Of a stretch of DNA of 64,000 bases, positions 17,052 through 59,251 are shown in pieces (positions within the stretch are counted from its first letter, which is position 1; each line of letters starts with the position of its first letter). Location of the stretch: assembly GCA_934179675.1 (NCBI GenBank), contig CAKPQS010000001.1, positions 10,154 to 74,153 of the forward strand, read 5' to 3'. The DNA comes from an uncultured Bacilli bacterium. Its GTDB lineage: Bacteria; Bacillota_I; Bacilli_A; RF39; UBA660. Under the pieces are notes generated by a model. The model ran no database searches. It was given only the letters and a program-made list of their open reading frames with translations, and was not told the DNA's origin. The translations under genes were made by a program, and so were the position numbers.

Positions 17052-17978
17052 CTATATTTCTAATATATCAGTCCAGTTTATTGGAAAACCTATCTTTTTG
17101 AGTATTTCTACTATTGACACACTATTTACTTTTCCATTCAAAACATCAAGTTCATAACTTATTTCATGTACTAAATCTCTAAATTCAGTTTCACTTAACA
17201 TACATTTCATTATTAAAACAAGTGCAAATAAGTCATTTTTTCCAAAAATATATTCATCTTCATTCATATCAATGTCAAGTATTTTATGATATTTTGTATC
17301 GGGTATTTTTCTACCAGTTCTATGGTCAAAGAAAATATCTTCATGAGCACAAATATTTCTAAAATTAGCTAGTAAAGATAAATAAATAATCATAGTATCG
17401 CTATTTATATTATAAATATCTGCAATACTTCTTCGATCTTCATCTTTTAAAATGCCATATAATTCAGCAACAATACCAAATGATAAAACTTTTACTAAAA
17501 CCCATAAAGGTATATATCCATAATTTGATACATAATGTGCTGTAGCACGATGCTGAGCTCCATTAATACGAATTTGTCTTTTCATTTTACTAATAATGTC
17601 ATGAACTTGTTTTATTCTACTTGGATCATCAATAAAATTTTCATCATTTAAGTAATCTTTTTCTTTATAACCATATTTTTTAGACATAAAATAACTTATT
17701 ATAGATTTTACATTATTTTCAATAACTAAAATATATTTAAAAAATATGTTACGAATTCTTCGATCAAAAATGAAAATACCATATAATTCATCAAATGTAG
17801 AACCCTTAATAAATTTTTTTTCACCAGGATACATAAGTAATTGTCTGTAGCCATTCAAAAAGAAATAATTTTCTCTAAATAATATACTTTTTGCTTTGTC
17901 AATATCTAAAATAGTTAAACCCTTAGATTTCATTATTTCAATTTGTTCATCAAGAGTTTTGAATGTCTTATCTCTCAT
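17052..17978 (-). CDS. Abi_2 family (AbiD/AbiF-like) abortive infection protein
   Basis: N-terminus KTLDEQIEIMKSKGLTI...AKSILFRENYFFLNGYRQL and FDRRIRNIFFKYILVIENNVKSII match the Abi_2 (PF07751) pattern (QiellksRGL...YYRLsgY...fDrkLRnll). Start at MRDKTF with a GGAGGA RBS. Confidence 0.7.
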   Translation of the reverse strand: MRDKTFKTLDEQIEIMKSKGLTILDIDKAKSILFRENYFFLNGYRQLLMYPGEKKFIKGSTFDELYGIFIFDRRIRNIFFKYILVIENNVKSIISYFMSKKYGYKEKDYLNDENFIDDPSRIKQVHDIISKMKRQIRINGAQHRATAHYVSNYGYIPLWVLVKVLSFGIVAELYGILKDEDRRSIADIYNINSDTMIIYLSLLANFRNICAHEDIFFDHRTGRKIPDTKYHKILDIDMNEDEYIFGKNDLFALVLIMKCMLSETEFRDLVHEISYELDVLNGKVNSVSIVEILKKIGFPINWTDILEI

Positions 17979-18117
17979 AAGTCCTCCATCCCTATTATTA
18001 ATTATATCACAAAATATGAACAAAAAGAATATCATATAAATATAATTTTACACTCAAATATTAAATAGTCAATAAATTGAAAGTAAAAATAATAATTCTT
18101 AATAAAATAAACAAAAA

Positions 18118-18165: not shown

Positions 18166-18762
18166 CTATTTTTGTGTAGCTACAGCTTTTAAATTAAATG
18201 TTATAGTTTTACCAGCATAAGCATTATCAATTGTACTACCATATGGCCATTCCCAGTTAACTGTAACTGAATTAGTCTTAGGATTAGTTTCAGCTGCCCA
18301 ATTGTATGAAGCAACTTCAGCACCTGCACCTGTTAATTCCGCAGTTTCAAGTGTTTTTTCCCCAACTTTGAAAATTAATCCACTAGGAGCATTAGTTAAA
18401 TTATACATAGTAATACTTGCGTCAGTAGCAACACTACTACTAGAAGCATCAACTTTTAAAGTAAAACTTCCTTTAGAACCAGGAGCAAGTTTAGCATTTT
18501 CTTTACCTAGGTTGGCACATCCCTCAGTACAAGATTTTGCTAAATCAACACGATAAGGAGTGGTATCTTTAAATGAAGTTAATCCATCTACAGCATCACC
18601 TTTATCAGCACCTAAAAAGTCAAATGTCCAAGAAGCAGTTAATGTACCTGATACTTTAGCAGTATAAGTTGTTTGGAAAAATGCATAAGTAGCATATCCA
18701 AATGCACATACTGTTACAATAAGACAAGCAACTATAAATACTTTCAATTGATCTTTTTTCAT
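18166..18762 (-). CDS. TasA/CalY (camelysin, peptidase M73)-like secreted protein with a SipW-cognate signal peptide
   Basis: 198 aa. The N-terminal signal ends in YATYAFFQTT...SGTL, like the TasA/CalY 'AFF(N/S)D...GTL' SipW recognition region. Size matches CalY, and the protein has a beta-rich T/S/A composition. Confidence 0.5.
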   Translation of the reverse strand: MKKDQLKVFIVACLIVTVCAFGYATYAFFQTTYTAKVSGTLTASWTFDFLGADKGDAVDGLTSFKDTTPYRVDLAKSCTEGCANLGKENAKLAPGSKGSFTLKVDASSSSVATDASITMYNLTNAPSGLIFKVGEKTLETAELTGAGAEVASYNWAAETNPKTNSVTVNWEWPYGSTIDNAYAGKTITFNLKAVATQK

Positions 18763-18821: not shown

Positions 18822-19340
18822 TTAATTTGTTTTTTGTACAGCATCAACTAGAACATCAAATTTTAAAGTCTTACCAGCAAATGTTGTATCATCAGAACCA
18901 TTAATTGGCCATTCCCAATAAATTTTGTAATTTTTCTGCATACTTGCACCATAAACTATAACTCCACTTATTTTATATGATGCTAAATTAATAGAAACTT
19001 TCTTACTTTCATCTGTATAAAATTTCAAATTATCTGGTATGTTCTCTAAATTAGCAAATGTAACAACGTAATCGATATCAACTTGACTACCTGTACCATC
19101 TAATTCAATATCAAATGTTCCATTAGAGCCTGGGCCTATTTTTCCATTTAACAAATTAGAAGCATTTTTTGCTAAATCTATAGTAAATGATTCCTTATTT
19201 TTATTTACTTTGAAACGCCATTTAGCAACAATAGATGTACTTTTTGCAGTTGAACTTTGAACAAATACAGCATAAGTAACTCCACCTATTAATACTAGAG
19301 CAACTAAAGCAAATATTATAATACTAGTTTTCTTTTTCAT
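18822..19340 (-). CDS. TasA/CalY-like secreted protein (paralogue) with a SipW-cognate signal peptide
   Basis: Start at MKKKTS (GGAGGG RBS). Signal ...GGVTYAVFVQSS, then a beta-rich domain with an ending similar to the paralogue (GKTLKFDVLVDAVQK vs GKTITFNLKAVATQK). Confidence 0.5.
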   Translation of the reverse strand: MKKKTSIIIFALVALVLIGGVTYAVFVQSSTAKSTSIVAKWRFKVNKNKESFTIDLAKNASNLLNGKIGPGSNGTFDIELDGTGSQVDIDYVVTFANLENIPDNLKFYTDESKKVSINLASYKISGVIVYGASMQKNYKIYWEWPINGSDDTTFAGKTLKFDVLVDAVQKTN

Positions 19341-19420
19341 CGTAAACCCTCCGAACCTTACTATATGTATCATTACCGTACAATATAATTCTACCCCAAA
19401 CAAAAACAAAAGTCAATGAA

Positions 19421-20088: not shown

Positions 20089-21828
20089 TTATTCTAAAAC
20101 AGCTTTAATTCTTCTTATACCAGCACTACTAGCTTCTTCTTTTATAATTTTAAAATGACCTAATTCACTTGTATTTTTAACATGAGGACCACCACATAAT
20201 TCATGTGAAACATTACCGATACTATAAACAGTTACAATATCAGGATATTTTTCAATAAACATACATTCTGCTCCACTTTTAATAGCGTCTTCTTTTGTCA
20301 TTTCTTTAACTGTTACATCAAGGCCATCATTAATCCATTTATTAACTAAATCTTCAACTTTTTTCTTTTCTTCATCACTTAATTTATGATCCAAACTAAA
20401 ATCAAAACGCATTCTTTCAGATGTAATATTTGATCCTTTTTGATGACAATCTTTGCTAACAACTTCTTTTAAAGCAGCATTAAGTAAATGAGTAGCCGTA
20501 TGATATTTAGTTTCTATTTCACCTGTACTTGCAAGGCCACCTTTAAATTTACCAATACTAGCAGTTCTAGAAAGTTCCTGATGTTCTTTAAATTTATTAT
20601 TAAATCCTTGAACATCAACATTCAAACCTTTTTCTTTTGCAAGTTCAACTGTTAATTCAAGTGGAAAACCATAAGTATCAAACAAATGAAATGCTGTAAT
20701 ACCATCTATATCACAATTTTTAGATGCAATTTTTTCAAATTCTTTCAAACCTTTTTCTAAAGTACGACAGAATTTATTTTTCTCATTTTTTAAAACTTCT
20801 AAAACAATATCTTTATTTTCTACAAGTTCATTATAATATTTTGCATATTTATCAATTATTTTAGAAGCAATAACTTCTTCAAAATTAGTATTAATATCAA
20901 TACCCAATTTTTTAGCATGTCTAATAGCACGTCTAATAAGTCTTCTTAAAATATAACCTTGATCAGTATTACTAGGCTTAATACCTGATTTATCTGCAGA
21001 TATAAATACAGCTGTTCTAATATGATCAGCAATAATTCTCATTGATTCTGGATTTTCTTCATATTTTTTTCCAGAAATTTCTTCAATTAAAGAAATTACA
21101 TCTTTCCATACACTTGACTTATAATTATCAGTAACGCCTTCTAAAACAGCAACAACTCTTTCAAGTCCCATACCAGTATCAACATTTTTTTTAGGAAGTT
21201 CACTAATATTACCATTATTATCTTTATAATATTGCATGAAAACATCATTCCATATTTCAACCCAACGATCATCATCTGGATCAAACTTTTCGGGAATCTC
21301 ATCATCTGATCTAAAATAAAACATTTCTGTATCTGGCCCGCATGGTCCAGTTTCACCAGCTATCCAAAAATTATCGCTAATTTTGGCAATTCTTTCATCA
21401 GAAATACCCATTTGTTTCCATAATTCATAAGATTCTTTATCAAACGGTATATATTCATTTCCAGCAAATACAGTAACAGCTAATCTATTAAGTGGAATAT
21501 TAAGAACTTTTGTCAAAAATTCAAAACTCCAACTTATTGCTTCTTTCTTGAAATAATCTCCCAAACTCCAATTACCTAACATTTCAAAAAAAGTATGATG
21601 GTAAGTATCACCAATATTATCCAAATCATTAGTTCTAATACATTTTTGATAATCACAAAGTCTTGTTCCCATAGGATGTGGTTCACCTAATAAATATGGA
21701 ATCAATGGTTGCATTCCTGCTGTATTAAATAATACCGATGGATCATTTTCTGGTACAACAGGACTACTAGGAATTTGAACATGTCCATGACGAACAAAAA
21801 AATCAATATACATATCTTTTAAATTCAT
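20089..21828 (-). CDS. alaS: Alanine--tRNA ligase, compact form (catalytic + tRNA-recognition + minimal editing core; no C-Ala domain)
   Basis: FNTAGMQP, HHTFFEMLGNWSLGDYFK, GMGLERV and FDTYGFPLELT are class II AlaRS motifs. Editing motifs HTATHLL...CHQKG and C-terminal CGGPHV...GIRRIKAV end the protein at 580 aa. Start at MNLKDM with a GGAGGT RBS directly after the T-box terminator. Confidence 0.8.
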   Translation of the reverse strand: MNLKDMYIDFFVRHGHVQIPSSPVVPENDPSVLFNTAGMQPLIPYLLGEPHPMGTRLCDYQKCIRTNDLDNIGDTYHHTFFEMLGNWSLGDYFKKEAISWSFEFLTKVLNIPLNRLAVTVFAGNEYIPFDKESYELWKQMGISDERIAKISDNFWIAGETGPCGPDTEMFYFRSDDEIPEKFDPDDDRWVEIWNDVFMQYYKDNNGNISELPKKNVDTGMGLERVVAVLEGVTDNYKSSVWKDVISLIEEISGKKYEENPESMRIIADHIRTAVFISADKSGIKPSNTDQGYILRRLIRRAIRHAKKLGIDINTNFEEVIASKIIDKYAKYYNELVENKDIVLEVLKNEKNKFCRTLEKGLKEFEKIASKNCDIDGITAFHLFDTYGFPLELTVELAKEKGLNVDVQGFNNKFKEHQELSRTASIGKFKGGLASTGEIETKYHTATHLLNAALKEVVSKDCHQKGSNITSERMRFDFSLDHKLSDEEKKKVEDLVNKWINDGLDVTVKEMTKEDAIKSGAECMFIEKYPDIVTVYSIGNVSHELCGGPHVKNTSELGHFKIIKEEASSAGIRRIKAVLE

Positions 21829-21840
21829 AAAAACCTCCAC

Positions 21841-22035
21841 AAAAAAGGATAGTACAAGGAGTCTATAAGACGGTACCATCCTTTATTTAACTTAACTATA
21901 TTAACGATCATCAGACCGTGGTAACTTTAATTACCAAGCTCCCAAGTAGCATATCTAAAAAAATATTATTTACTTTTCACCAATAGTAAATTCTCTATAA
22001 ATATTTGTTTTTAGATAATCTTGTTCATTGCTTTT
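21841..22035 (-). promoter_or_regulatory. T-box riboswitch leader (alanine specifier) controlling alaS
   Basis: Minus-strand leader contains T-box sequence AAAGGATGGTACCG and a terminator GGATGGTAC...GTACTATCC + U7 immediately before the alaS RBS. A GCUA specifier candidate (atatGCTAc) is present. Confidence 0.65.
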
Positions 22036-22040
22036 AAATT

Positions 22041-22068
22041 ATTATACTATATTTTTTAAAATAATCAA
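22041..22068 (-). promoter_or_regulatory. sigma-A-like promoter for the T-box/alaS transcript
   Basis: TTGATT-16 nt-TATAAT on the minus strand, just upstream of the leader. Confidence 0.4.
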
Positions 22069-24416
22069 ATGTTTTTTTTAATATTTATTATTTCTTTAGC
22101 ATTTTGATATTCATTTTCATTTCCACCATCAAGAATAGCAGATTTTAAACTACCATTGTTATAATAAATATACCAATTACTAGAACATATAGCATAATCA
22201 ACGTTATCAATAATATTCGAATCAATATCTAATAATCCATTTAACATATTAATTCTAGAAATTGCGCTTTTATCATATAAAGTATCAAATGGTGGTATTT
22301 TATAATAAAAATTATTTAAATCTATTGGATTAACCCCATCTCCATACAAACAAATTGCTTTGCCATCATAATTCATTTTAATACCATACTTGCCATATTT
22401 TAAATCAAAAAACATATCATTTTTTACAATATCGCACTTAATATTTCTTGCATATTTACCAGTACTCATAAAAACTTGTTTAATATTTTGACCAGTATTA
22501 TAAGATTTTTTAACTAATAATAAAACATATTTTTTTACAGCTTTATATAAGTATTCATCACTATATTCTTTATAAATAGGATCTCTTAATTCATTTAAGA
22601 AAACAGAATCACCTAAACATACACCAGCAATTCTAGTAACTAAATCATTATTTTTTTTAATAACAATATTAAATCCATTGGGATTAACAAGAGTATACTC
22701 AAATAAATCATCCATATTTCCATAAGCACGCATACAAGATCCTAATTTTTCTCCAGTTACTAACATTTCAGGATCATAAAAATTATCATTACTAATAACT
22801 AAATCATCATAATTAATAGTTAATATAGGAACTGATACATACCTCCTAATAAGCATTTTTTTATAAATATCTAAACATCTTTTTACTCTATCATCAACTT
22901 TACCTACACTTTTTAATGGATAAGGATCACTTATAATCCAGTAAATAGTATCACCAAAAACTCTAGTATATTTACTATATGGATTATTTAATGATTTAGA
23001 TTGCTTTAAATAATCTAAAAACATACTATAAAAATTTTTATTAACATTTTTGTTAATAATATCAAAATTATTAATTAATGCACATAGATTAACATCACTA
23101 TAAGTACAATCACCACTAAAACATACATCTGTTAATTTTAGACTAGTTGTCAAAAATAATAAATCATGTTTATACATAATATCATAAAATAGATCATAAT
23201 TTTTTTTAATACAGCCATCAAATACCTTTTTTAAATCAAGTGAATTAATAATATTTATTAGATCTTTTTTATCAAAAGGAATATTAAAACACTCATCATT
23301 TAATGGCAAATTTTTATAATCATCTACTATAATATCATCATCCAAATTTGAAGTAATAAAAGAACTAACATAACTAAGTATTTTTCCCATCAAATAATTA
23401 ATATTATTAAATTCAATAAATTTGACGCCTTTTACTCCATCTGTTAATAGAGCAAATAAAATATTAGTATCAAAATCTTTATCAACTATATTTTTGGATA
23501 CCAAATATTTTTTTAATTCATTTAAACTATCTTGATTATAAGCTATTTTATAACACATATTTTTCATTTGTTTCTTCTTATTAATTATTCTTTTCATATT
23601 ATAGCTAACTTCAATTTTGAAAGGAAAACCATTACTAAAATTCATTTTTTTATTTTTAAAAATTTCTCTTTTTTTATTATACGAAACATAACATAGTTCT
23701 TTTATTAATGATGTATATTTAGAAAATGTTTTATAATCATTGGATTTATACAAATTAAAATAAATATTAAAAAGTTCTTGTAAATTAGTATATTCTATAT
23801 TATATTTTAAAAATATATTTTTTTTAATATTATCATCTAAATAATTATCAATTTCTACATAAAGTTTTTTATCAGATAAGACTTTATCAAAAGCATGATT
23901 ATTTAATAAATCATTTCGAGTTATATATATAAAATTATAATCAATTAAAGCATTATAAAAATTAATTAAATTTAAAATTTTTGGTTTTTTTAGGGAAAAC
24001 ACATCAAAAAATTTATTTAAAGTTTCATCATCTAATGATTCAATATATTTGTATTCATTGCTTAATATAATTTTAAATCCATATCTTTTAATAAATTCAT
24101 AAGATTTTTTACCATATAATTTTTTTAAGGAATCAGGGGAAAGAAAATTAAGTATATTTTCATATAAAGGATGTTTTTCTAAATCATTAATACTAATTAA
24201 ATTATTCATTATTTTTTCATTAATAATAGCAAAATAAATATTTGTAAATTCAGAATTAAAATTAATTATTTTTTTTAATTTCATTTTATTATTAAAATCT
24301 TTAACATATTCATTAACAATTTCTTTATGATTTAAGAAAAAGCTATCCAAATCATGAATATCACCTTTATATAAGAAAATAGAATTTAAATTATTTATTA
24401 TTTCATCATAATTCAT
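22065..24416 (-). CDS. large hypothetical protein (783 aa), paralogue of the upstream 925-aa protein
   Basis: Long uninterrupted ORF, extremely AT-rich (N/K/I/Y-rich). Shares KMNFSNGFPFKIEVS / NLPLNDE / NPNGFNIVI...GVCLGDSVFLNEL blocks with the 24413-27190 product. Its ATG overlaps the upstream stop (ATGA). Confidence 0.5.
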   Translation of the reverse strand: MNYDEIINNLNSIFLYKGDIHDLDSFFLNHKEIVNEYVKDFNNKMKLKKIINFNSEFTNIYFAIINEKIMNNLISINDLEKHPLYENILNFLSPDSLKKLYGKKSYEFIKRYGFKIILSNEYKYIESLDDETLNKFFDVFSLKKPKILNLINFYNALIDYNFIYITRNDLLNNHAFDKVLSDKKLYVEIDNYLDDNIKKNIFLKYNIEYTNLQELFNIYFNLYKSNDYKTFSKYTSLIKELCYVSYNKKREIFKNKKMNFSNGFPFKIEVSYNMKRIINKKKQMKNMCYKIAYNQDSLNELKKYLVSKNIVDKDFDTNILFALLTDGVKGVKFIEFNNINYLMGKILSYVSSFITSNLDDDIIVDDYKNLPLNDECFNIPFDKKDLINIINSLDLKKVFDGCIKKNYDLFYDIMYKHDLLFLTTSLKLTDVCFSGDCTYSDVNLCALINNFDIINKNVNKNFYSMFLDYLKQSKSLNNPYSKYTRVFGDTIYWIISDPYPLKSVGKVDDRVKRCLDIYKKMLIRRYVSVPILTINYDDLVISNDNFYDPEMLVTGEKLGSCMRAYGNMDDLFEYTLVNPNGFNIVIKKNNDLVTRIAGVCLGDSVFLNELRDPIYKEYSDEYLYKAVKKYVLLLVKKSYNTGQNIKQVFMSTGKYARNIKCDIVKNDMFFDLKYGKYGIKMNYDGKAICLYGDGVNPIDLNNFYYKIPPFDTLYDKSAISRINMLNGLLDIDSNIIDNVDYAICSSNWYIYYNNGSLKSAILDGGNENEYQNAKEIINIKKNI

Positions 24417-27190
24417 AAATTCTTTCCTCCATTTTTTATTTCTTCAATTATATCATCACTTATTGGTCCAATTACAAATGCATCCTCTTCCTTATACCAG
24501 GATCTACCTGCATAAAATGGTTTACAATATTCTTTATCATTTATAGTTCCTTCTTCATTATGTTTAAATAAATCAAGTATCCTAATCATTTTAGCCCTTT
24601 CATAAGCTTGATCATTAAAATAATATTTAGGTAATATAGGATATTTATTTAAACTATTATTAGAAATTTTAGTAAAATTATCATACATTACTTTTCCGTA
24701 GCCATTATAATCAGTAAAAACAGGAAGTAATTTGCCATTAAAAATTTTATTGTATTCATCCTTTAGACTTAAATAAATATGCCCTATATTATCATCATGA
24801 CTTTCTTCTAAAATAGAATTAATAAATAGTTCAAGTGATGATATAATATATTTAGGATGAACAATGCTAGATAAATTAGATAAAAATATAGTATTACCAT
24901 ATCTTATTCCAAAAATAATACCAATTAACTTATTATCATAAAACTTAATTATAAATCCATTTTCATTTGAAAAGACATAATTATATAAATCTTTATATTT
25001 TACAATATCAAAATTAACCATTAATGGGCAAAATACATCTTCATAATCATAACCTCCTATAGAAACAGTAATTTCATGATTATTAATAATATATTTATTG
25101 GAAATATCAGGAATTGGTAAACTTCTTTTGCATAAAGCATTATAACCGAGGTCAAAAAAATATTTTATGTCATTCACATCATTTTTTATGAAAGAAAAAT
25201 ATTTATCCAAATTAAATAATGATGGTATTTTATTATATTTATTATTATCCATATATTTATCATATGTATCATGACTATTAATTAAATAAAAATTATCTAT
25301 TAAAGATATGGTATTTTTTTTATTGTAAAATGATGGAATTAAGTTAAAAATGTCTAACATATATAAGTTCTGTTTTTCAAAGAAAAAATTTTTAAATTCA
25401 TCATATTTATTGTCAAGTACATATCTTAATTTATTAAAATCAATATTAATAAGTATATCAAGAATAGTTTTTTTATTATAATAAGCTTTCAGATATTCGT
25501 CGGTTAAAGGTAAATTAAAATATTCTATATAAATGTTATCAACATTTTCGTTTTTACAGTATCTGCTTAAATAATTATCAATATTAACATCTAAATTTTC
25601 CAAAACAAAACTAGAATTTTTCAAATATTTTTTCACACTTTTTACAAATGTTGTAAACGAAATATTTTGGTAATTATGATAAATATTAAAACATAATTCA
25701 TTAAGTAAATCGGCATCATTTAGTACTTTCATTTTAATAGAATTTAGTTTTTTTTCTTTATAAATTCTATTAATATAAATATCACTAGGTTCAACCAAAA
25801 AAGGATATCCATCACTAAAATCCATTTTAGTAGACGCAAATAAATCGAATTTTCTTTCATAAGCACTTTTACAAATAGAATCTATTATTGCACCAAATTT
25901 TTCTTGTCTTTTTTTATCAAGTGCTACACTTGCTCTCCTATATGCTTCAAAAATATCATCAATTAATTCATATAATGATTTATTAGTATCCAAAATATTT
26001 TTTACTAAATTGACTAAATAATCATAATATGATGAACCTAATATTTTTTTAATTTTATTTATTTTTCCTTGAATATTATTATCAATAATACCATTATTAT
26101 CTATTGAGTTTTTAATTTTTAAAGACATGTCTTTATTAAATATATCTTTATTAATAAATTCTTCTTTTATTATACTAAAATATAAATTGCGTACATTTTC
26201 CATTTTTATTTTGTCATTAAAACAAAATATTTTTATAAATTTTTCAAATTGAACTATAGAAAAAATATTTATTGTTTCTATTTTTTTATATCCAATTTTA
26301 AATATTTCAATTCCATAATATAAATATAATTGGTATATTTTTTTTCCAAAAACTAATAGAATAGAATCATCATTAAAATATTTAACTAATCTAGATAATT
26401 GTTCGTTTGAATAAATTTTTAAAATTGAAATATCAAATTTTTTATTTTTGATTTCTTTATTTATTAAATTTTTTAAAATTTCATTTAATAAATTAGATTT
26501 TATGTTATCATAATCAATTAAATAATTATTAATTTTAATAAAATTTTCAATTTTATTCTTAAAATTTTTATAATTATTTAATAAATAATTATCCAATTCC
26601 TTATTATTAGTAAATGTCAATATATTGTAATTGTTCGAATTAATTGATGCAATTAAAAATCTAGAATCATTTAAATATCTTTTAGAAGAATACTTATTCA
26701 ATTTTATAATACCATTTTCAATATTTTTTATACAGATATTATCAATTTTTTCCTTATTTTCTAAATAAAAATCAGAATTATTATAATCTAAAATTTCTAA
26801 AAAGCCATTATTTAAACATTGATTAACAAATAATTTATTATTTATCAATACTTTAGGTGTTTTATCAGATAAATTATATAATTTTTCATTCAAAAATTTA
26901 ACAATATGATTTATATTATTAATTAAAAAATTATTAATTTCATCATTATTAAACAATCTAGCAATATCAACATTTGAGGCAATAATAGAAGCTTTTATAA
27001 AATCATTATCATTATAATATCTAATTGCACTTTCATCATCTAGCCACAATTTTAAGTTTAAAATATCATTAAAAATTCTTTTTTTATTTTTTAAAATATA
27101 TTCATGAATAGAAGAATCACAATAAAAATTACAAGTGTATAACTTGTTTAGATCATTATTATCAATTGCCCTTTTAATTTCTTCTATCAT
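24413..27190 (-). CDS. large hypothetical protein (925 aa), paralogue of the downstream 783-aa protein
   Basis: Long ORF with an AGGAG RBS. Shares KMDFSDGYPFLVEPS / NLPLTDEYL / NENGFIIKF...GIRYGNTIFLSNL blocks with the neighbour. No Walker, HTH or catalytic motif recognised. Confidence 0.5.
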   Translation of the reverse strand: MIEEIKRAIDNNDLNKLYTCNFYCDSSIHEYILKNKKRIFNDILNLKLWLDDESAIRYYNDNDFIKASIIASNVDIARLFNNDEINNFLINNINHIVKFLNEKLYNLSDKTPKVLINNKLFVNQCLNNGFLEILDYNNSDFYLENKEKIDNICIKNIENGIIKLNKYSSKRYLNDSRFLIASINSNNYNILTFTNNKELDNYLLNNYKNFKNKIENFIKINNYLIDYDNIKSNLLNEILKNLINKEIKNKKFDISILKIYSNEQLSRLVKYFNDDSILLVFGKKIYQLYLYYGIEIFKIGYKKIETINIFSIVQFEKFIKIFCFNDKIKMENVRNLYFSIIKEEFINKDIFNKDMSLKIKNSIDNNGIIDNNIQGKINKIKKILGSSYYDYLVNLVKNILDTNKSLYELIDDIFEAYRRASVALDKKRQEKFGAIIDSICKSAYERKFDLFASTKMDFSDGYPFLVEPSDIYINRIYKEKKLNSIKMKVLNDADLLNELCFNIYHNYQNISFTTFVKSVKKYLKNSSFVLENLDVNIDNYLSRYCKNENVDNIYIEYFNLPLTDEYLKAYYNKKTILDILINIDFNKLRYVLDNKYDEFKNFFFEKQNLYMLDIFNLIPSFYNKKNTISLIDNFYLINSHDTYDKYMDNNKYNKIPSLFNLDKYFSFIKNDVNDIKYFFDLGYNALCKRSLPIPDISNKYIINNHEITVSIGGYDYEDVFCPLMVNFDIVKYKDLYNYVFSNENGFIIKFYDNKLIGIIFGIRYGNTIFLSNLSSIVHPKYIISSLELFINSILEESHDDNIGHIYLSLKDEYNKIFNGKLLPVFTDYNGYGKVMYDNFTKISNNSLNKYPILPKYYFNDQAYERAKMIRILDLFKHNEEGTINDKEYCKPFYAGRSWYKEEDAFVIGPISDDIIEEIKNGGKNL

Positions 27191-47678: not shown

Positions 47679-48143
47679 TTACATTAAAGTACTACCAATG
47701 CCACCATTTCTCTTACCAAAAGAATTATCATCATCTATGGTTAAATAGTTCATAAACACCCCTTGAGCAAAACGAGTTCCTTTTTTTATTTCAAAATCAT
47801 TATCAGATGTATTTTCAATAACAAAAATAATATTTCCTTCATTATCTGGATTATTATAATAATCAGAATCAATGACACCGACGCTATTTTTTAAAACTAA
47901 ACCATATTTAATTGCAAAGCTACTTCTAATATATAAATATAAAACATCTCTTTCTTCCATACAGGCTTTAACCCCAGTAAAAATTTTTAGACATTCTCCC
48001 TTTTTTATTATAAAATCAGAAGGTGCAAAAAAATCATAACCTGCACTTTTTTTAGTACTTCTAGAAGGTAAATCAAAATCGTATAATGATTTATCATAAT
48101 TTTTTTCAAATTCATTTAAACTAACTTTTTCAAAACATCTCAT
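47679..48143 (-). CDS. dut: dUTP diphosphatase (trimeric dUTPase)
   Basis: SAGYDFFAP, IRSSFAIKYGL, GVIDSDYYNN (motif III GVIDxDYRG) and a C-terminal GG...FG motif V. Confidence 0.7.
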   Translation of the reverse strand: MRCFEKVSLNEFEKNYDKSLYDFDLPSRSTKKSAGYDFFAPSDFIIKKGECLKIFTGVKACMEERDVLYLYIRSSFAIKYGLVLKNSVGVIDSDYYNNPDNEGNIIFVIENTSDNDFEIKKGTRFAQGVFMNYLTIDDDNSFGKRNGGIGSTLM

Positions 48144-48147
48144 AAAA

Positions 48148-48651
48148 TCACTCCTCTAAATATTTAGATATAAATTTAGAAACAAATTTACATAATTCGA
48201 AGTCATTATTCGTAATATCATCATCAAAAATAACAACAATACCACAGACATCACTATTACTTATAATTGATGAATAACAATAATGATTAGAAAAAACATT
48301 TGAACAAATACAAATTTCCTTATTTCCTATTTTACTTGTTCTAGAAAACATTAAAATATCCAAATCATCACTGATTTCTTTATCAATTAAATATTTATTT
48401 CCTGCAACTATTCTACTAGTATCAGTAATAATAAAACTTTTTTTTGTATAACCTAAAACAGAATTAGCAAGCATATCAAATAAATCTTTTTTATCATCAA
48501 AAATATTAAATTTACTTAAAACAATATCTCTATCATTCATAAATATTTCTAAACTATCTCCTGCTTTTATTTTTAAATTTTTTCTTATTTCTTTTGGTAA
48601 AACTATTCGACCTAGTTCATCTATTCTTCTAACTACACCAGTAGATTTCAT
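48148..48651 (-). CDS. spoVT: Stage V sporulation protein T (AbrB-type swapped-hairpin N-domain + GAF-like C-domain)
   Basis: N-terminus KSTGVVRRIDELGRIVLPKEIRKNLKIKAGDSLEIF is the AbrB/SpoVT DNA-binding domain; ~170 aa; located next to mfd as in B. subtilis. Confidence 0.75.
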   Translation of the reverse strand: MKSTGVVRRIDELGRIVLPKEIRKNLKIKAGDSLEIFMNDRDIVLSKFNIFDDKKDLFDMLANSVLGYTKKSFIITDTSRIVAGNKYLIDKEISDDLDILMFSRTSKIGNKEICICSNVFSNHYCYSSIISNSDVCGIVVIFDDDITNNDFELCKFVSKFISKYLEE

Positions 48652-48691
48652 TAAATGCCTCACTTTCTAAATATATTGTGAAACATTTATT

Positions 48692-51600
48692 TTATTTTAT
48701 ACTTTTTTTAACAAGTTTTACTAAATCAATTAAATAATAGATATAATGTTTATCTAATTTAATAGTATCTAATGTAATTACTAAAGAGTTATCTTTCATG
48801 CTAAATCTAAACATTCTTGATAATTTATTAACTTCCATAAATAATTCTTTACCATCAATTTTATTAGTAATATTTTTATTAAATATAACATCAACACTAT
48901 TTCGGTTAATTTTAATTTTATCAACAATATCTGTTGCCAATTTTTCAAACCATTCACTATACATATAAATAATTACATCATCATCTAATTTACCAAATCT
49001 ATCAGTTAATTCTTTTTTAACTTTTTCAAGACTTTCTAAAGAATCAATTGTATTAATTTTTTTATGAATTAATAATTTCATATCTGATTCTATTGCTAAA
49101 TCATCACCAATACTACTTGGGGCATCAAGTAATGGCGATTCTTTAACTTCAACTTTTTCCTTACCATTTAAACGATCTATTTCTTCATTTAACATTTTCA
49201 TAAATAGTTCAATACCAACATCATCAACAAAACCTGCTTGTTCACTACCAAGTATAGATCCAGCACCTCTTAATGACAAATCACGCATAGCAATAGAAAA
49301 ACCACTTCCTAGTTCAGTGAACTCTTTTATTGCTTTTAATCTTTTCATTGCAGTTTCATTTAAATTTTTATCCGGCTTATACATCAAATAACAATAAGCA
49401 ACTTTATTACTACGACCTACACGGCCCCTTATTTGATATAATTGAGATAAACCAAATCTATCAGAATCCATAATTATTAAAGTATTAACATTAGGTATAT
49501 CAATTCCAGTTTCAATTATAGTAGTACAAATCAAGCAATCGTATTCTTTATTAATAAACTTTTGCATAACATCTTCAAGCTCAATTTTAGACATTCTTCC
49601 ATGAGCATGAACAATTTTTAATTCAGGAATCAATTTCTTTATTTCATTCATTTTTTCTTCTATAGTTTCAACATAATTGTATAAAATAAATATTTGACCA
49701 CCTCTAGATATTTCTTTATATATAGCATCTTTAATAATAGTTTTATTTTCTTTTAATACGTATGTTTGAACAGGATATCTATTAACCGGTGGTGTTTCAA
49801 TTAATGATAAACTTCTTAATCCAGTCATCGACATTTGCAAAGTACGTGGGATAGGAGTTGCTGATAGTGTTAAAACATCAATATTATTTTTATATGATTT
49901 AATTTTTTCTTTGTGTCGTACACCAAATCGTTGTTCTTCATCAACAACAAGTAAACCTAGATCTTTAAATACTACATCATTTGATAAAATACGATGCGTG
50001 CCAATAACTATATCTATTTCTCCTTTTCGTATTTTTTCAATATTTGCGTCCATTATTTTTTTAGAAACAAATCTATTAATTAAACATATTTTTACGTCAA
50101 AATCTTTAAATCGTTCAACAGCATTTTTATAATGCTGACTTGATAAAATAGTTGTCGGACATAAGAGCGCTACTTGTTTTGAAGAACAAACAGCCTTAAA
50201 CATTGCTCTAAAAGCTACTTCTGTTTTTCCATAACCAACATCACCACATAAAAGACGATCCATTGGATGGCTAGATTCCATGTCTTTTGATATTTCTTTT
50301 TCCACTTTTATTTGATCACTTGTTTCAGTATAAGCAAAATCATTATCAAATTCTTCTTGTAATTCTTTATTGTCTAGAAACTTAAATCCAACTGACTTCT
50401 CTCTTTTAGCATACAACTCCAAAAGTTCTTTTGTCATTTCTTCAATATGTTTACGTGCTTTTGCTTTAGCTTTATTCCACTCACTTGATCCTAATTTATT
50501 AATTTTAGGCTTTACACCATCACCTGATGAATATTTAGTAATAAATTCCATTTTTGATGCTGGAACATATAACTTATCATCCCCATCATAGTTGATTTGC
50601 AAATAATCTTTTTTTATACCATTTTTTACAAGTGTTTTAATTCCCATATATTTGCCAATTCCATAGGAAGAATGAACGACATAATCACCAACGTTTAATT
50701 TATTAAGATCTCTAATTTTTGTACCCATTTTAAAATTAGTTTTATATTGATAATTATCTTTGGAATTAAATATTTCAGTTTCTGAAATAACTACATAATC
50801 CTTAAATATGAAACCACTTTTTATGTCACCTATAATAAAATTAATTTTGCCTTTTACTAAATTATCTTCATCAGTTAAAATAGTATTTTCATTTTCTAAA
50901 TCATTAATTAATTTATTAATTTTATTTAAAGAATTAATATAGATAATAATAATATAATTTTTTTTTATATATTCATTTAATCTTTTATTTATATCATCAA
51001 TACCATTAAAAGGTGTAATATTAGCTGAAATATATTTTTCACCTGATAATGAGTTTATATCTAACATATTTTGTAATTTAAAATCATTAATATCATGCAT
51101 ATATTTAAAAGATGCTGAAACATCATTTGAAATACTATATTCCATCATTTCGTTAACTAAATTAACATAAGAATCATTAAATCTTTCAAAATCATCAAAA
51201 ACAACATTCTTATCTTTTAAATAATCAACAATTCCTACAACATCTGTATAATCTTTCAAATTTTTTTGTAATCGATATTCAAAAGGCGCTGATTTAGTAG
51301 ATAAAAATTCTGTATATGAAAATATATTAATTTCTTTAACATTATCCTGTGACATTTGAGAATCAACATTAAAATATCTAATAGAATCAACTGTATCACC
51401 CCAAAATTCAACTCTTATAGGTTTATTATAATTTATTGGAAAAACATCTACCACAAAACCTCTAACAGCTATTTCTCCTGTTTTATTAACAACACTTTCT
51501 CTTGAATATCCTAAATCATAAAGTTTGTTAACAAGTTTATGAATATCTACTGTATCACCTAATTTTATTTTTAAATCAGATTTTTTATATAATTCAATAG

Positions 51601-51931
51601 TAGGTAAATATCGCAAATATCCCATCATGTTAGTTATAACAATTCGATTATTATTTTTAACTAATTCATTCATTGTTTCTAATCTTGTTACTTTCAATTC
51701 AGGACTAACTGCTATTGCTTCACTGGTCAAAAAATCATCCATAGGAAAAAACAAACATTCCACATGTTTGGAAATTGACTGAAAATAGGTATTTGCTTCA
51801 TATAAGGTATTGCAAACAACTAATATAGAGCCATATTTTTTATATAATTCAATTATATATTCTGTTTTTAATTCTTCATTTAATCCATTTACCTTGCTAG
51901 GAAACTTTTTAATATCAAAAAGTTTTAACAT
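48692..51931 (-). CDS. mfd: Transcription-repair coupling factor Mfd
   Basis: UvrB-homology N-domain, RNAP-interacting domain, superfamily-2 helicase motifs (LLCGDVGYGKTEVA, DEEQRFG, TATPIPRT), and the TRCF C-domain; 1079 aa. Confidence 0.9.
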   Translation of the reverse strand: MLKLFDIKKFPSKVNGLNEELKTEYIIELYKKYGSILVVCNTLYEANTYFQSISKHVECLFFPMDDFLTSEAIAVSPELKVTRLETMNELVKNNNRIVITNMMGYLRYLPTIELYKKSDLKIKLGDTVDIHKLVNKLYDLGYSRESVVNKTGEIAVRGFVVDVFPINYNKPIRVEFWGDTVDSIRYFNVDSQMSQDNVKEINIFSYTEFLSTKSAPFEYRLQKNLKDYTDVVGIVDYLKDKNVVFDDFERFNDSYVNLVNEMMEYSISNDVSASFKYMHDINDFKLQNMLDINSLSGEKYISANITPFNGIDDINKRLNEYIKKNYIIIIYINSLNKINKLINDLENENTILTDEDNLVKGKINFIIGDIKSGFIFKDYVVISETEIFNSKDNYQYKTNFKMGTKIRDLNKLNVGDYVVHSSYGIGKYMGIKTLVKNGIKKDYLQINYDGDDKLYVPASKMEFITKYSSGDGVKPKINKLGSSEWNKAKAKARKHIEEMTKELLELYAKREKSVGFKFLDNKELQEEFDNDFAYTETSDQIKVEKEISKDMESSHPMDRLLCGDVGYGKTEVAFRAMFKAVCSSKQVALLCPTTILSSQHYKNAVERFKDFDVKICLINRFVSKKIMDANIEKIRKGEIDIVIGTHRILSNDVVFKDLGLLVVDEEQRFGVRHKEKIKSYKNNIDVLTLSATPIPRTLQMSMTGLRSLSLIETPPVNRYPVQTYVLKENKTIIKDAIYKEISRGGQIFILYNYVETIEEKMNEIKKLIPELKIVHAHGRMSKIELEDVMQKFINKEYDCLICTTIIETGIDIPNVNTLIIMDSDRFGLSQLYQIRGRVGRSNKVAYCYLMYKPDKNLNETAMKRLKAIKEFTELGSGFSIAMRDLSLRGAGSILGSEQAGFVDDVGIELFMKMLNEEIDRLNGKEKVEVKESPLLDAPSSIGDDLAIESDMKLLIHKKINTIDSLESLEKVKKELTDRFGKLDDDVIIYMYSEWFEKLATDIVDKIKINRNSVDVIFNKNITNKIDGKELFMEVNKLSRMFRFSMKDNSLVITLDTIKLDKHYIYYLIDLVKLVKKSIK

Positions 51932-51935
51932 ACAA

Positions 51936-52496
51936 TCATCCTTTTTTATTATATTTATTCATTAAATTATCAAAAGATAAAATAAAATAATCATCTAATA
52001 TATTATTTGTTTCTTTTAAAACATCATCAAATTTACATTTTTCGACATTTGAAAATTTACCCAATACAAAAGATACCATATCTGTATTATTTTTCGATAA
52101 TCCTACTTTTAATCTTTTAAATTTGTCTGTTTTTAGATTATCAATAATATTTCTTATACCATTATGGCCACCACAAGAACCACTTTTTTTAAGTTTTACA
52201 CTTCCAAGTTCGATATCTTTATCATCATAAACAATCAATATATCATCTATATTAATTTTAAAATAGTTAACAAAAGATAAAACAACAGTTCCTGACAAGT
52301 TCATAAAACTGAGTGGTTTTAGAACAATAACATCTTCATTTTGATATTTAATTAAAGAGTATTCGCCATTAAATTTTTTTTTATCAAATTTATAATTATG
52401 ATAATTCATCCAATTATCTAAAACCATAAATCCTACATTATGTCTTGTATTTTTATATTCATTACCGGGATTGCCCAAACCAACTAATAATTTCAT
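51936..52496 (-). CDS. pth: Peptidyl-tRNA hydrolase
   Basis: KLLVGLGNPGNEY..TRHNVGF and GGHNGIRN motifs; 186 aa. Confidence 0.85.
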   Translation of the reverse strand: MKLLVGLGNPGNEYKNTRHNVGFMVLDNWMNYHNYKFDKKKFNGEYSLIKYQNEDVIVLKPLSFMNLSGTVVLSFVNYFKINIDDILIVYDDKDIELGSVKLKKSGSCGGHNGIRNIIDNLKTDKFKRLKVGLSKNNTDMVSFVLGKFSNVEKCKFDDVLKETNNILDDYFILSFDNLMNKYNKKG

Positions 52497-59029: not shown

Positions 59030-59069
59030 CTCTATCCAAACATTTGTTCGCTTATGATGTTATTTTTAC

Positions 59070-59160
59070 AATAAAAAATAGTGCACACGTTTAGAGGTTT
59101 TTAAGGCTGCTATCTTCCAATTCTGACCTGTTTCAAACATAATCGTTGCACCAAATAAAA
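59070..59160 (-). ncRNA. ffs: small SRP RNA (4.5S/scRNA, ffs), tentative boundaries
   Basis: The minus-strand sequence ...GGUGCAACG...AACAGGUCAGAAUUGGAAGAUAGCAGCCUUAA...CGUGUGCAC+U6 contains the conserved domain IV (CAGGUCAG...GGAA tetraloop...AGCAGCC) of bacterial 4.5S RNA. A closing helix GUGCAACG/CGUGUGCAC and a U-tail are also present. Confidence 0.55.
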
Positions 59161-59251
59161 TATACAATATTTTAATTTTTTTTTCAAGGTTTTAATGTAT
59201 TTTTTAATCATTTTTATAATAAACATTTAAACAATAATAAATAGCTGTTTT

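What the first reader, a model, noticed from the sequence alone, without database searches (positions are those of the whole stretch)
20089..22068. Domain-minimal alanyl-tRNA synthetase (580 aa, no C-Ala domain, shortened editing region) behind a T-box leader
The ORF has all class II AlaRS catalytic and tRNA-recognition motifs and the HxxxH...CxxxH editing core. It ends immediately after the GIRRIKAV element, whereas bacterial AlaRS (~870-880 aa) continues into the C-Ala oligomerisation/tRNA-binding domain. The segment between FDTYGFPLELT and HTATHLL is also ~100 aa shorter than in E. coli, consistent with loss of the editing beta-barrel subdomain (AlaX-S/M-like core). It is preceded by a canonical T-box leader with a GCU specifier candidate (AAAGGATGGTACCG T-box sequence; terminator GGATGGTAC/GTACTATCC + U7). 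Either this lineage uses a naturally minimal AlaRS, or this is a second specialised copy.
Basis: partly seen in the sequence, partly recalled or inferred. Interest (0 to 1): 0.5.

Follow-up and report, generated by a model that had tools for sequence, protein, structure and literature searches.

The report
Short alanyl-tRNA synthetase behind T-box
This gut bacterium carries an intact, well-conserved alanyl-tRNA synthetase that naturally lacks two of the enzyme's usual five domains and is switched on by an alanine-tRNA-sensing T-box; the short form is real, but it belongs to an already catalogued class called small-AlaRS.

Summary
On the minus strand there is a promoter-like site, a T-box leader with a GCU (Ala) specifier and a terminator/antiterminator switch. 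A 579-aa alaS gene follows (21828..20089).

The protein has the catalytic domain, the tRNA-recognition domain and a Zn-motif editing core. It lacks about 105 aa (the beta-barrel) and about 176 aa (the coiled coil plus C-Ala) relative to E. coli AlaRS.

This is not a frameshift or an assembly error:
- The identical protein occurs on more than 140 independent contigs.
- All 80 species-level relatives that were fetched stop within 0-6 codons of the same position.
- dN/dS is about 0.1.
- No C-Ala or barrel remnant lies nearby.

The architecture is already known. NCBIfam NF002436 is a 595-position curated model of it. A 2023 preprint names this three-domain form "small-AlaRS", reported from CPR bacteria and some archaea.

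This copy is a new member, from low-GC gut Bacilli. An alanine T-box in front of it is conserved in at least 28 related species.

Whether it is the genome's only AlaRS could not be tested. I think it likely (about 0.75).

Interest is modest. The class is biochemically uncharacterised and contradicts textbook statements about AlaRS, but it is not new.

The parts
22041..22068 (-). Promoter-like site: TTGATT, 16-nt spacer, TATAAT (10 of 12 matches)
   Evidence: Identical in 8 strains. This is a consensus match only; the transcription start was not determined.
21854..22037 (-). T-box leader (the Rfam RF00230 match): Stem I, Stem II-like and Stem III hairpins, and the antiterminator
   Evidence: 72.7 bits, E 4.4e-16, model positions 1-219 of 219, below the gathering score of 93. 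Homologous leaders in L015 and L016 reach 108.7 and 97.7 bits. Compensatory changes occur in distal Stem I and in the antiterminator helix across 28 leaders.
21947..21950 (-). Specifier codon GCU (Ala) plus the conserved 3' purine A
   Evidence: GCU is invariant in 28 aligned leaders. GCU[A/G] lies 53-69 nt before the T-box motif in the alaS leaders of related species.
21871..21884 (-). T-box sequence AAAGGAUGGUACCG. The bulge UGGU (21878-21875) is complementary to the ACCA-3' end of a tRNA with discriminator A
   Evidence: GGAUGGUACC is invariant in all 28 aligned alaS leaders. That tRNA-Ala has discriminator A73 is established knowledge, not tested here.
21857..21882 (-). Antiterminator: AGGA / bulge UGGUACC / GUCU-UAU-AGAC / UCCU
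   Evidence: Structure line of the Rfam alignment. 2, 12 and 14 double-sided changes in its inner helix across relatives.
21841..21884 (-). Intrinsic terminator: 12-bp stem AAAGGAUGGUAC/GUACUAUCCUUU, then a U run (6 U in all, 3 of them in the stem). Its 5' arm overlaps the T-box sequence, so it excludes the antiterminator
   Evidence: -15.9 kcal/mol, z = -3.07. The simple terminator scan missed it because the loop is 17 nt.
21834..21838 (-). Ribosome-binding site GGAGG, 5 nt before the ATG
20089..21828 (-). alaS coding sequence, 579 aa plus TAA stop (small-AlaRS)
20548..21828 (-). Aminoacylation domain, residues 1-427: class II catalytic core plus the helical tRNA-recognition (ATL) domain
   Evidence: PF01411, E 4e-141. 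40-42% identity and target TM 0.79-0.84 to the E. coli and A. aeolicus catalytic fragments. N287 and D384 align with E. coli N303 and D400.
20521..20547 (-). Linker, residues 428-436, in place of the roughly 105-aa beta-barrel subdomain; predicted disordered
   Evidence: pLDDT below 50 at residues 426-432. Alignment gap at E. coli 441-533 and 551-562.
20092..20520 (-). Editing core, residues 437-579, AlaX-S-like. Zn motif H443, H447, C545, H549; also Q463 and R572
   Evidence: tRNA_SAD. AlaX-S 1v4p aligns at 4-136 of 157. The AlaXM model matches only at positions 96-233 of 234. Foldseek target TM 0.83-0.88 to AlaX-S. The motif residues are invariant in 44 diverse short forms.

Best explanation
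The gene encodes a functional three-domain alanyl-tRNA synthetase of the small-AlaRS class, and it serves as the cell's alanine-charging enzyme.

Shown. The catalytic domain, the tRNA-recognition domain and the Zn-dependent editing core are intact and under purifying selection. The beta-barrel and C-Ala domains have been absent since before the divergence of hundreds of species.

Inferred mechanism.
- Without the C-Ala coiled coil the enzyme is probably a monomer.
- It probably binds tRNA-Ala only through the acceptor stem. The residues aligned with the E. coli G3:U70-reading N303 and D400 are kept.
- It probably has no contact with the tRNA elbow.
- Mischarged Ser-tRNA-Ala would be cleared in cis by an AlaX-S-sized editing core tethered by a short flexible linker. 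That core keeps the C-terminal segment that carries tRNA-Ala specificity for editing in E. coli (residues 680-699).

Expression. Transcription is controlled by an alanine T-box. Uncharged tRNA-Ala pairs its anticodon with the GCU specifier and its ACCA end with the UGGU bulge. This stabilises the antiterminator and allows read-through into alaS. Charged tRNA-Ala lets the terminator form.

I infer, but could not show, that this is the only AlaRS of the genome.
For: Family assignment. NCBIfam equivalog NF002436 scores 787.8 bits (cut-off 529) over profile positions 5-593 of 595. TIGR00344 scores 621 bits (cut-off 457). Pfam agrees.

Not an artefact.
- The identical protein is on 146 contigs from independent gut assemblies, with the same neighbours.
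- All 80 species-level relatives at 55-80% identity have ORFs of 577-588 aa that stop 0-6 codons from the same point.
- The next gene starts 35 nt after the stop.

Selection.
- All 10 variable sites among 8 strains are synonymous third positions.
- dN/dS is 0.096 overall, 0.089 for the aminoacylation part and 0.115 for the editing part.
- The Zn-motif residues and the catalytic residues are invariant in 44 short forms that share 40-64% identity with the query.

Missing domains..

Breadth. 71 of the best 152 sequences from 50%-identity clusters have the same two-domain loss.

T-box.. Two homologous leaders exceed Rfam's gathering score. The GCU specifier and the UGGU bulge are conserved, with compensatory changes in two helices.

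Literature. The same architecture is described as small-AlaRS. C-Ala-free AlaRS can work: Tupanvirus mini-AlaRS and the A. aeolicus N453 fragment. The editing-domain tRNA specificity element is at E. coli 680-699.
Against: - No aminoacylation, editing or oligomeric-state data exist for any small-AlaRS in the searched literature.
- Reviews state that bacterial AlaRS needs C-Ala-mediated dimerisation and elbow binding for efficient charging, and that deleting C-Ala from E. coli AlaRS sharply lowers activity. So compensation is assumed, not shown.
- T-box control does not prove sole-copy status. From my own knowledge, B. subtilis thrS/thrZ and tyrS/tyrZ are all T-box regulated.
- The window's T-box scores below Rfam's gathering threshold.
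Confidence: 0.75

Rival explanations
1. It is a second, specialised AlaRS paralogue (for example a starvation-induced backup), and a canonical 870-aa alaS sits elsewhere in the genome.
For: The genome beyond 64 kb was not readable. T-box-regulated duplicate synthetases exist in Bacillota (own knowledge: thrZ and tyrZ of B. subtilis). Canonical AlaRS sequences at 41-49% identity exist in the databases.
Against: The short form is conserved in at least 588 matched stretches of species-representative genomes. These include relatives whose single contigs of 0.53-1.19 Mb suggest small genomes. Selection is as strong as expected for an essential enzyme. The window and 88 loci contain no other AlaRS-like sequence. 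In relatives the gene sits in an operon with housekeeping kinases such as cmk.
Confidence: 0.15
2. The short enzyme works together with a separately encoded partner, such as a free-standing C-Ala/AlaX-L or AlaX-M protein. The partner would supply elbow binding or glycine editing in trans, as in split AlaRS systems.
For: Split and free-standing AlaRS modules are known: N. equitans split AlaRS and the AlaX-S/M/L proteins. P. horikoshii AlaX-S alone does not clear Gly-tRNA-Ala, so a helper (AlaX-M or DTD) would make sense.
Against: tblastn with C-Ala and barrel segments from E. coli and ten canonical AlaRS sequences found nothing better than E = 0.058 in the window plus 88 loci. No AlaX or DTD appeared among the ten small window ORFs scanned. 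The gene placed between the T-box and alaS in relatives is a P-loop kinase-like protein, not an AlaRS module.
Confidence: 0.08
3. It is a truncated pseudogene, or a frameshift or assembly artefact of a canonical alaS.
For: None beyond the unusual length.
Against: The same length is seen in more than 140 independent contigs and in 80 species at 55-80% identity. Between-strain changes are synonymous only and dN/dS is about 0.1. No C-Ala remnant occurs in any frame downstream. A curated 595-position family model fits end to end.
Confidence: 0.01

Closest known systems
small-AlaRS subgroup (bioRxiv 10.1101/2023.05.29.542759, 'Common evolutionary origins of the bacterial glycyl tRNA synthetase and alanyl tRNA synthetase')
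   Same: Exactly the same architecture: catalytic, ATL (tRNA-recognition) and editing domains, with no cradle-loop barrel and no C-Ala.
   Different: The paper reports it from CPR bacteria, Thermoplasmatota, DPANN and Asgard archaea. This copy is from low-GC gut Bacilli-type MAGs and sits behind an alanine T-box, which the text I searched does not mention. The paper gives no biochemistry.
NCBIfam NF002436 (PRK01584), 'alanine--tRNA ligase', equivalog, 595 positions
   Same: The protein matches end to end (positions 5-593 of 595) at 787.8 bits against a cut-off of 529. An 87%-identical homologue is already named alanine--tRNA ligase (CCY93665.1, Firmicutes bacterium CAG:884).
   Different: Nothing structural. 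The model is an annotation device and says nothing about mechanism or the missing domains.
Canonical bacterial AlaRS (E. coli AlaS, 876 aa; TIGR00344)
   Same: 45% identity over the shared parts. The class II catalytic core is conserved. The residues aligned with N303 and D400, and with the editing residues H564, H568, Q584, C666, H670 and R693, are conserved.
   Different: It lacks E. coli 441-533 plus 551-562 (the beta-barrel) and 699-874 (the coiled coil plus the globular C-Ala). In E. coli these mediate oligomerisation and binding of the tRNA elbow.
Tupanvirus mini-AlaRS (PMC10036535)
   Same: A natural AlaRS without C-Ala. It still charges tRNA-Ala through the acceptor stem alone and complements yeast. 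This is functional precedent for C-Ala-free charging.
   Different: [quoted passage not shown] The window enzyme keeps both.
C. elegans mitochondrial AlaRS (PMC8887476)
   Same: A natural AlaRS with only a residual C-Ala.
   Different: It keeps the full editing domain, and its C-Ala loss accompanies T-arm-less tRNAs. Here the T-box keeps a conserved Stem I distal region, so a normal tRNA elbow is expected (inference).
AlaX-S free-standing editing protein (P. horikoshii PH0574; PDB 1v4p, 1wnu)
   Same: The editing part of the window protein has the same size, fold and Zn motif.
   Different: Here it is fused in cis to the synthetase. It also keeps the C-terminal GxRRIxAV segment that carries tRNA-Ala specificity in E. 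coli AlaRS. AlaX-S acts in trans and also clears Ser-tRNA-Thr.
alaS T-box leaders of Bacillota (for example C. acetobutylicum alaS, PMC4695836; Rfam RF00230)
   Same: Ala specifier, T-box bulge, and competing terminator and antiterminator upstream of alaS.
   Different: Very AT-rich and below Rfam's gathering score in this genome. It controls a small-AlaRS. In many relatives it controls a P-loop kinase-like gene plus alaS.

Membership tests
Alanyl-tRNA synthetase (class II, alanine--tRNA ligase) | Class IIc catalytic core plus the helical tRNA-recognition domain (PF01411; curated equivalog models) | tested here: met
   PF01411, E 4e-141. NF002436, 787.8 bits (cut-off 529), and TIGR00344, 621 bits (cut-off 457). 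Target TM 0.79-0.84 to solved catalytic fragments.
Alanyl-tRNA synthetase (class II, alanine--tRNA ligase) | Residues that read the G3:U70 pair (E. coli N303 and D400) | tested here: met
   N287 and D384 align with them. N287 is at least 90% conserved in 44 short forms.
Alanyl-tRNA synthetase (class II, alanine--tRNA ligase) | Charges tRNA-Ala with alanine | not testable with these tools
   Needs an enzyme assay or complementation.
small-AlaRS (three-domain AlaRS) | Catalytic, ATL and editing domains all present | tested here: met
small-AlaRS (three-domain AlaRS) | Cradle-loop (beta) barrel absent | tested here: met
   PF01411 stops at profile position 436 of 552, against 548 in the canonical P0141. 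105-aa gap relative to E. coli. A 9-residue disordered linker in the model. No barrel remnant by tblastn.
small-AlaRS (three-domain AlaRS) | C-Ala domain absent | tested here: met
   No DHHA1 hit. The protein ends 30 residues after CxxxH. The next gene starts 35 nt after the stop. tblastn is negative.
small-AlaRS (three-domain AlaRS) | Groups with other short forms rather than with canonical AlaRS | tested here: inconclusive
   In a neighbour-joining tree all 71 short forms fall in one clan that contains one of the 70 canonical forms. The backbone branches are very short, the sample is biased towards the query, and no support values were computed.
Canonical ('prototype') bacterial AlaRS | Beta-barrel subdomain of the editing domain | tested here: not met
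Canonical ('prototype') bacterial AlaRS | C-terminal coiled coil plus globular C-Ala (DHHA1-like) domain | tested here: not met
T-box riboswitch (RF00230) | Score at or above Rfam's gathering threshold | tested here: not met
   72.7 bits against 93. The E-value is still 4.4e-16, the match is full length, and homologous leaders in L015 and L016 score 108.7 and 97.7 bits.
T-box riboswitch (RF00230) | Stem I with a specifier loop that presents a codon followed by a purine | tested here: met
   GCU-A at 21950-21947. GCU is invariant in 28 leaders. Distal Stem I shows 2-10 double-sided changes per pair.
T-box riboswitch (RF00230) | Conserved T-box sequence with a UGGN bulge, in an antiterminator that competes with a terminator | tested here: met
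T-box riboswitch (RF00230) | Uncharged-tRNA-dependent antitermination | not testable with these tools
   Needs in-vitro transcription or reporter assays.
AlaX-S-type editing core | HxxxH and CxxxH Zn motif in an alpha/beta fold of about 150 aa with no N-terminal barrel | tested here: met
AlaX-S-type editing core | Deacylates Ser-tRNA-Ala | not testable with these tools
   Needs a deacylation assay.
Viral mini-AlaRS (Tupanvirus type) | Editing domain absent as well as C-Ala | tested here: not met
   The editing core is present and conserved.

The most novel reading that the evidence does not exclude
The three-domain enzyme is the only AlaRS of an abundant human-gut Bacilli lineage and of hundreds of related species. 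If so, free-living-type bacteria with normal L-shaped tRNAs manage without C-Ala, without AlaRS oligomerisation and without the editing barrel. The family would then have been exchanged between Patescibacteria and Bacillota (55-59% identity across genomes of 25-54% GC) and placed under a resident alanine T-box. In that case its AlaX-S-like core would probably edit Ser- but not Gly-tRNA-Ala.
Probability: 0.55. Interest if true: 0.45.

Novelty: new member of a known kind. Interest (0 to 1): 0.3.

Why it matters
AlaRS reviews and recent primary papers state that the enzyme keeps one prototype four-domain structure throughout biology. They also state that prokaryotic AlaRS needs C-Ala-mediated oligomerisation and elbow binding.

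A large, strongly conserved natural class without C-Ala and without the barrel contradicts that generalisation. It is common in human-gut bacteria: 146 contigs carry this exact protein, and 588 or more matched stretches occur in species-representative genomes.

The class offers a ready-made natural experiment on three questions:
- what C-Ala and the barrel are for;
- whether acceptor-stem binding alone suffices in bacteria;
- how editing specificity (Ser versus Gly) is maintained.

The practical value is limited. The class is already annotated correctly and has been named, so this is a well-documented example rather than a discovery.

Tried and rejected
1. Frameshift or assembly error. Rejected.

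2. Upstream ATG at 21879 (596-aa ORF). Rejected, because it lies inside the terminator and no homologue uses it.

3. Looking for a second alaS, AlaX, C-Ala or DTD.
- tblastn of the query, of C-Ala segments and of barrel segments against the window and 88 loci found nothing.
- A Pfam scan of ten small window ORFs found none.
- The whole genome could not be fetched.

4. Organism names for distant short forms. A cluster look-up of ten representatives and a profile search gave almost no names. The profile search was dominated by one 586-aa gut clade. A second cluster look-up added only CCY93665.1.

5. tRNA-Ala, to inspect G3:U70 and the elbow. There is no tRNA in the window and no tRNA-Ala in 60 related loci.

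6. My recollection that spirochaete (Borreliella) AlaRS is about 594 aa and seeded PRK01584. A literature search found nothing on it. It stays unverified and is not used as evidence.

7. Order of domain loss. Barrel-less forms with C-Ala (5 sequences) and one barrel-containing form without C-Ala exist. The neighbour-joining tree is too poorly resolved to order the events. The one canonical form (P0141) that nests beside the window clade sits on a long branch, and I do not interpret it.

8. The simple terminator scan found none, because its loop limit is 8 nt. Folding shows the terminator.
Full report
WHAT IS THERE

The region lies on the minus strand of a low-GC stretch of chromosome (about 25% GC) in which almost every gene is on the minus strand. 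Reading 5' to 3' on that strand:
- A promoter-like TTGATT, 16-nt spacer, TATAAT at 22068-22041.
- A leader of about 210 nt.
- GGAGG at 21838-21834.
- ATG at 21828 and TAA at 20091-20089.

The mechanical ORF list extends the frame to an ATG at 21879 (596 aa). That codon lies inside the leader's terminator. All homologues and all public gene calls start at 21828, so the product is 579 aa. The next gene, an Amidase_3 protein, starts 35 nt after the stop.

THE PROTEIN

Family hits:
- Pfam tRNA-synt_2c on residues 3-428 (E 4e-141), covering only profile positions 2-436 of 552.
- Pfam tRNA_SAD on residues 532-574.
- No DHHA1 (C-Ala) domain.
- A canonical AlaRS scanned in the same way (P0141, 885 aa) covers profile positions 1-548 and has DHHA1.

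Aligned with E. coli AlaS, taken from NC_000913.3, identity is 45% over the shared parts. There are two large deletions:
- E. coli 441-533 plus 551-562 (105 aa, the beta-barrel of the editing domain).
- E. coli 699-874 (176 aa, the coiled coil and the globular C-Ala).

Residues aligned with E. coli N303 and D400 are kept (N287, D384). So are those aligned with the editing residues H564, H568, Q584, C666, H670 and R693 (H443, H447, Q463, C545, H549, R572). E. coli numbers here count the initiator Met as 1.

The protein ends two residues after the GxRRIxAV segment. That segment lies within E. coli 680-699, the stretch a review assigns to tRNA-Ala recognition by the editing domain.

An AlphaFold2 model built on 44 diverse short forms has mean pLDDT 92.6. 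It shows an aminoacylation body (1-427), a disordered linker (pLDDT below 50 at 426-432) and an alpha/beta editing body (437-579). There is no barrel.

Foldseek against the PDB gives three sets of matches:
- Catalytic fragments of the E. coli, A. aeolicus and human enzymes: target TM 0.79-0.88.
- AlaX-S: target TM 0.83-0.88 over about 152 residues.
- AlaX-M: only about half of the target, target TM 0.51-0.53.

Sequence searches agree. AlaX-S 1v4p aligns at 4-136 of 157. The AlaXM model aligns only at positions 96-233 of 234.

NOT AN ARTEFACT, NOT A PSEUDOGENE

- The identical 579-aa protein is recorded on 146 contigs. In eight independent human-gut assemblies it has the same neighbours.
- Among those eight strains the gene differs from the window at 0-5 sites each, 10 distinct sites in all. 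Every one is a synonymous third position, and the leader is identical.
- Against a 92%-identical allele, dN/dS is 0.096: 0.089 for the aminoacylation part and 0.115 for the linker plus editing part.
- The 80 loci that were kept (55-80% identity) all have ORFs of 577-588 aa that stop 0-6 codons from the window's stop.
- tblastn used C-Ala and barrel segments from E. coli and ten canonical AlaRS sequences, against the window and 88 loci. Nothing scored better than E = 0.058.

HOW WIDESPREAD, AND IS IT KNOWN?

An exhaustive HMMER search of 1.84 billion cluster representatives returned 24,506 hits. I classified the best 150, plus the window protein and E. coli AlaS, by alignment to E. coli:
- 71 lack both the barrel and C-Ala.
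- 70 are canonical.
- 5 lack the barrel but keep C-Ala. For four of these Pfam confirms DHHA1.
- 1 keeps the barrel but lacks C-Ala.
- 5 are fragments.

In 44 short forms that share 40-64% identity with the window protein, the Zn-motif residues and the key catalytic residues are invariant.

A neighbour-joining tree puts all 71 short forms in one clan, together with one canonical sequence. The backbone is nearly unresolved.

The short form occurs in genomes from 25% to 54% GC. Their record labels include Bacilli, Clostridia, Saccharibacteria and Patescibacteria. Several MAG labels are plainly unreliable.

The form is catalogued in two places:
- NCBIfam NF002436 (PRK01584) is a 595-position equivalog model for 'alanine--tRNA ligase'. 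It fits this protein end to end at 787.8 bits, against a cut-off of 529. An 87%-identical homologue is already named alanine--tRNA ligase (CCY93665.1).
[quoted passage not shown] It calls the subgroup small-AlaRS and reports it from CPR, Thermoplasmatota, DPANN and Asgard. This is the only paper in the library that uses the term, and it gives no biochemistry.

[quoted passage not shown] They also state that prokaryotic AlaRS needs C-Ala for dimerisation and elbow binding.

THE LEADER

Rfam's T-box model matches 22037-21854 over its whole length at 72.7 bits and E 4.4e-16 in the 341-nt search. That is below the gathering score of 93, so the default whole-window scan shows only an SRP RNA.

Its parts are:
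- Stem I, with AGAGA and a UGGUGAAA distal loop.
- Specifier GCU at 21950-21948, followed by A.
- Two further hairpins.
- The T-box sequence AAAGGAUGGUACCG at 21884-21871.
- An antiterminator: AGGA / bulge UGGUACC / GUCU-UAU-AGAC / UCCU.
- A competing 12-bp terminator, AAAGGAUGGUAC/GUACUAUCCUUU, with a run of six U.

The bulge UGGU would pair with an ACCA 3' end, which fits the A73 discriminator of tRNA-Ala (established knowledge).

Homologous leaders were found by nhmmer upstream of alaS in about 30 related species. Two of them exceed Rfam's threshold at 108.7 and 97.7 bits. In an alignment of 28 leaders:
- GCU and GGAUGGUACC are invariant.
- The distal Stem I helix shows 2-10 double-sided changes per pair.
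- The antiterminator inner helix shows 2, 12 and 14 double-sided changes.

In most of those relatives the T-box lies 530-1100 nt upstream of alaS. A P-loop, dNMP-kinase-like ORF of about 174 aa, and sometimes a second kinase gene, sits between the two. In the window and its nearest relatives the T-box directly precedes alaS. More distant relatives, including the Patescibacteria-labelled ones, show no T-box within 420 nt.

MECHANISM

Shown: an intact, selected AlaRS with an editing core and without the barrel and C-Ala; an alanine-specific T-box in front of it.

Inferred:
- The enzyme is monomeric.
- It recognises tRNA-Ala through the acceptor stem only.
- It edits in cis through a flexibly tethered AlaX-S-like core.

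Precedents for C-Ala-free charging are the Tupanvirus mini-AlaRS and the A. aeolicus N453 fragment.

P. horikoshii AlaX-S clears Ser-tRNA-Ala but not Gly-tRNA-Ala. A testable prediction follows: glycine editing is weak here and is left to another factor.

The T-box keeps a conserved Stem I distal region, which in T-boxes docks on the tRNA elbow (established knowledge). I therefore expect a normal L-shaped tRNA-Ala. This differs from the C. elegans mitochondrial case, where C-Ala loss accompanies T-arm-less tRNAs.

WHAT REMAINS OPEN

I could not read the rest of the genome, so 'sole AlaRS' is an inference (about 0.75). It rests on three points:
- conservation across the whole lineage;
- strong purifying selection;
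- the absence of any other AlaRS-like sequence in 64 kb plus the 88 loci.

T-box control alone does not decide the question.

VERDICT

It is a new member of a known kind, and interest is modest (0.3).

Noticed in passing
window 22065-24416 (-) and 24413-27190 (-): Two large tandem ORFs (783 and 925 aa, overlapping by 4 nt) lie immediately upstream of the alaS promoter. They are paralogues of each other (26% identity over 665 aa, E 2e-21). They are very N/K/I-rich and sit in the lowest-GC part of the window (about 19.8%). There is no Pfam hit on record and no PADLOC hit. They are conserved next to alaS in related strains. Function unknown.
   Followed up: partly
L010:3480-4004 and equivalents (for example L011, L018, L022, L030, L038, L042-L046): In about 25 related species the alanine T-box is followed first by a P-loop ORF of about 174 aa. 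It has weak matches to deoxynucleotide monophosphate kinase PF21448 and to P-mevalo_kinase. In some species a cytidylate-kinase-like or dephospho-CoA-kinase-like gene comes next, and only then small alaS. A nucleotide-kinase-like gene under an alanine T-box is unexplained. The window lacks this ORF.
   Followed up: partly
proteins P0122 (781 aa) and P0124 (776 aa): These are short-form AlaRS representatives with a foreign domain inserted inside the aminoacylation domain: Ham1p_like at residues 379-552 and His_Phos_1 at residues 221-384 respectively. They could be real insertions or assembly or gene-call chimeras.
   Followed up: no
proteins P0170, P0191, P0227, P0243, P0265, P0175: Intermediate AlaRS architectures exist. 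Five sequences of 773-834 aa lack the barrel but keep C-Ala (DHHA1 confirmed for four). One 692-aa sequence keeps the barrel but lacks C-Ala. The two losses are therefore separable.
   Followed up: partly
L091:3001-4740: This alaS allele looks recombinant. Its first 1260 nt are close to the window (dS 0.13). Its last 477 nt give exactly the same dN and dS as the 92% allele in L090 (dS 0.54).
   Followed up: no
window 17052-18035 (-): An AbiD/Abi_2 abortive-infection gene (PADLOC PDLC02344, E 5.5e-60). It lies about 2 kb downstream of alaS, past the amidase gene and two small signal-peptide-like ORFs (18166-18762 and 18822-19409) that have no family hit.
   Followed up: partly
window 59065-59162 (-): Bacterial small SRP RNA (RF00169, 55.4 bits). 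This is the only Rfam family above its gathering score in the window.
   Followed up: no
window 47679-52496 (-): A Bacillota-type housekeeping block: peptidyl-tRNA hydrolase (51936-52496), a 1079-aa ORF (48692-51931, not scanned), a SpoVT/AbrB-like regulator (48148-48663) and a dUTPase (47679-48143). This is consistent with the Bacilli assignment of the related MAGs.
   Followed up: partly
L087 (CAYSVV010000015.1), L014, L019, L044, L061: Several public MAG records that carry close relatives of this Bacilli-type alaS are labelled Methanosarcinales, Muribaculaceae, Bacteroidaceae, Actinomycetes or Bacteroides helcogenes. These are likely mis-binned or mislabelled contigs, so taxon labels should be used with caution.
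   Followed up: no
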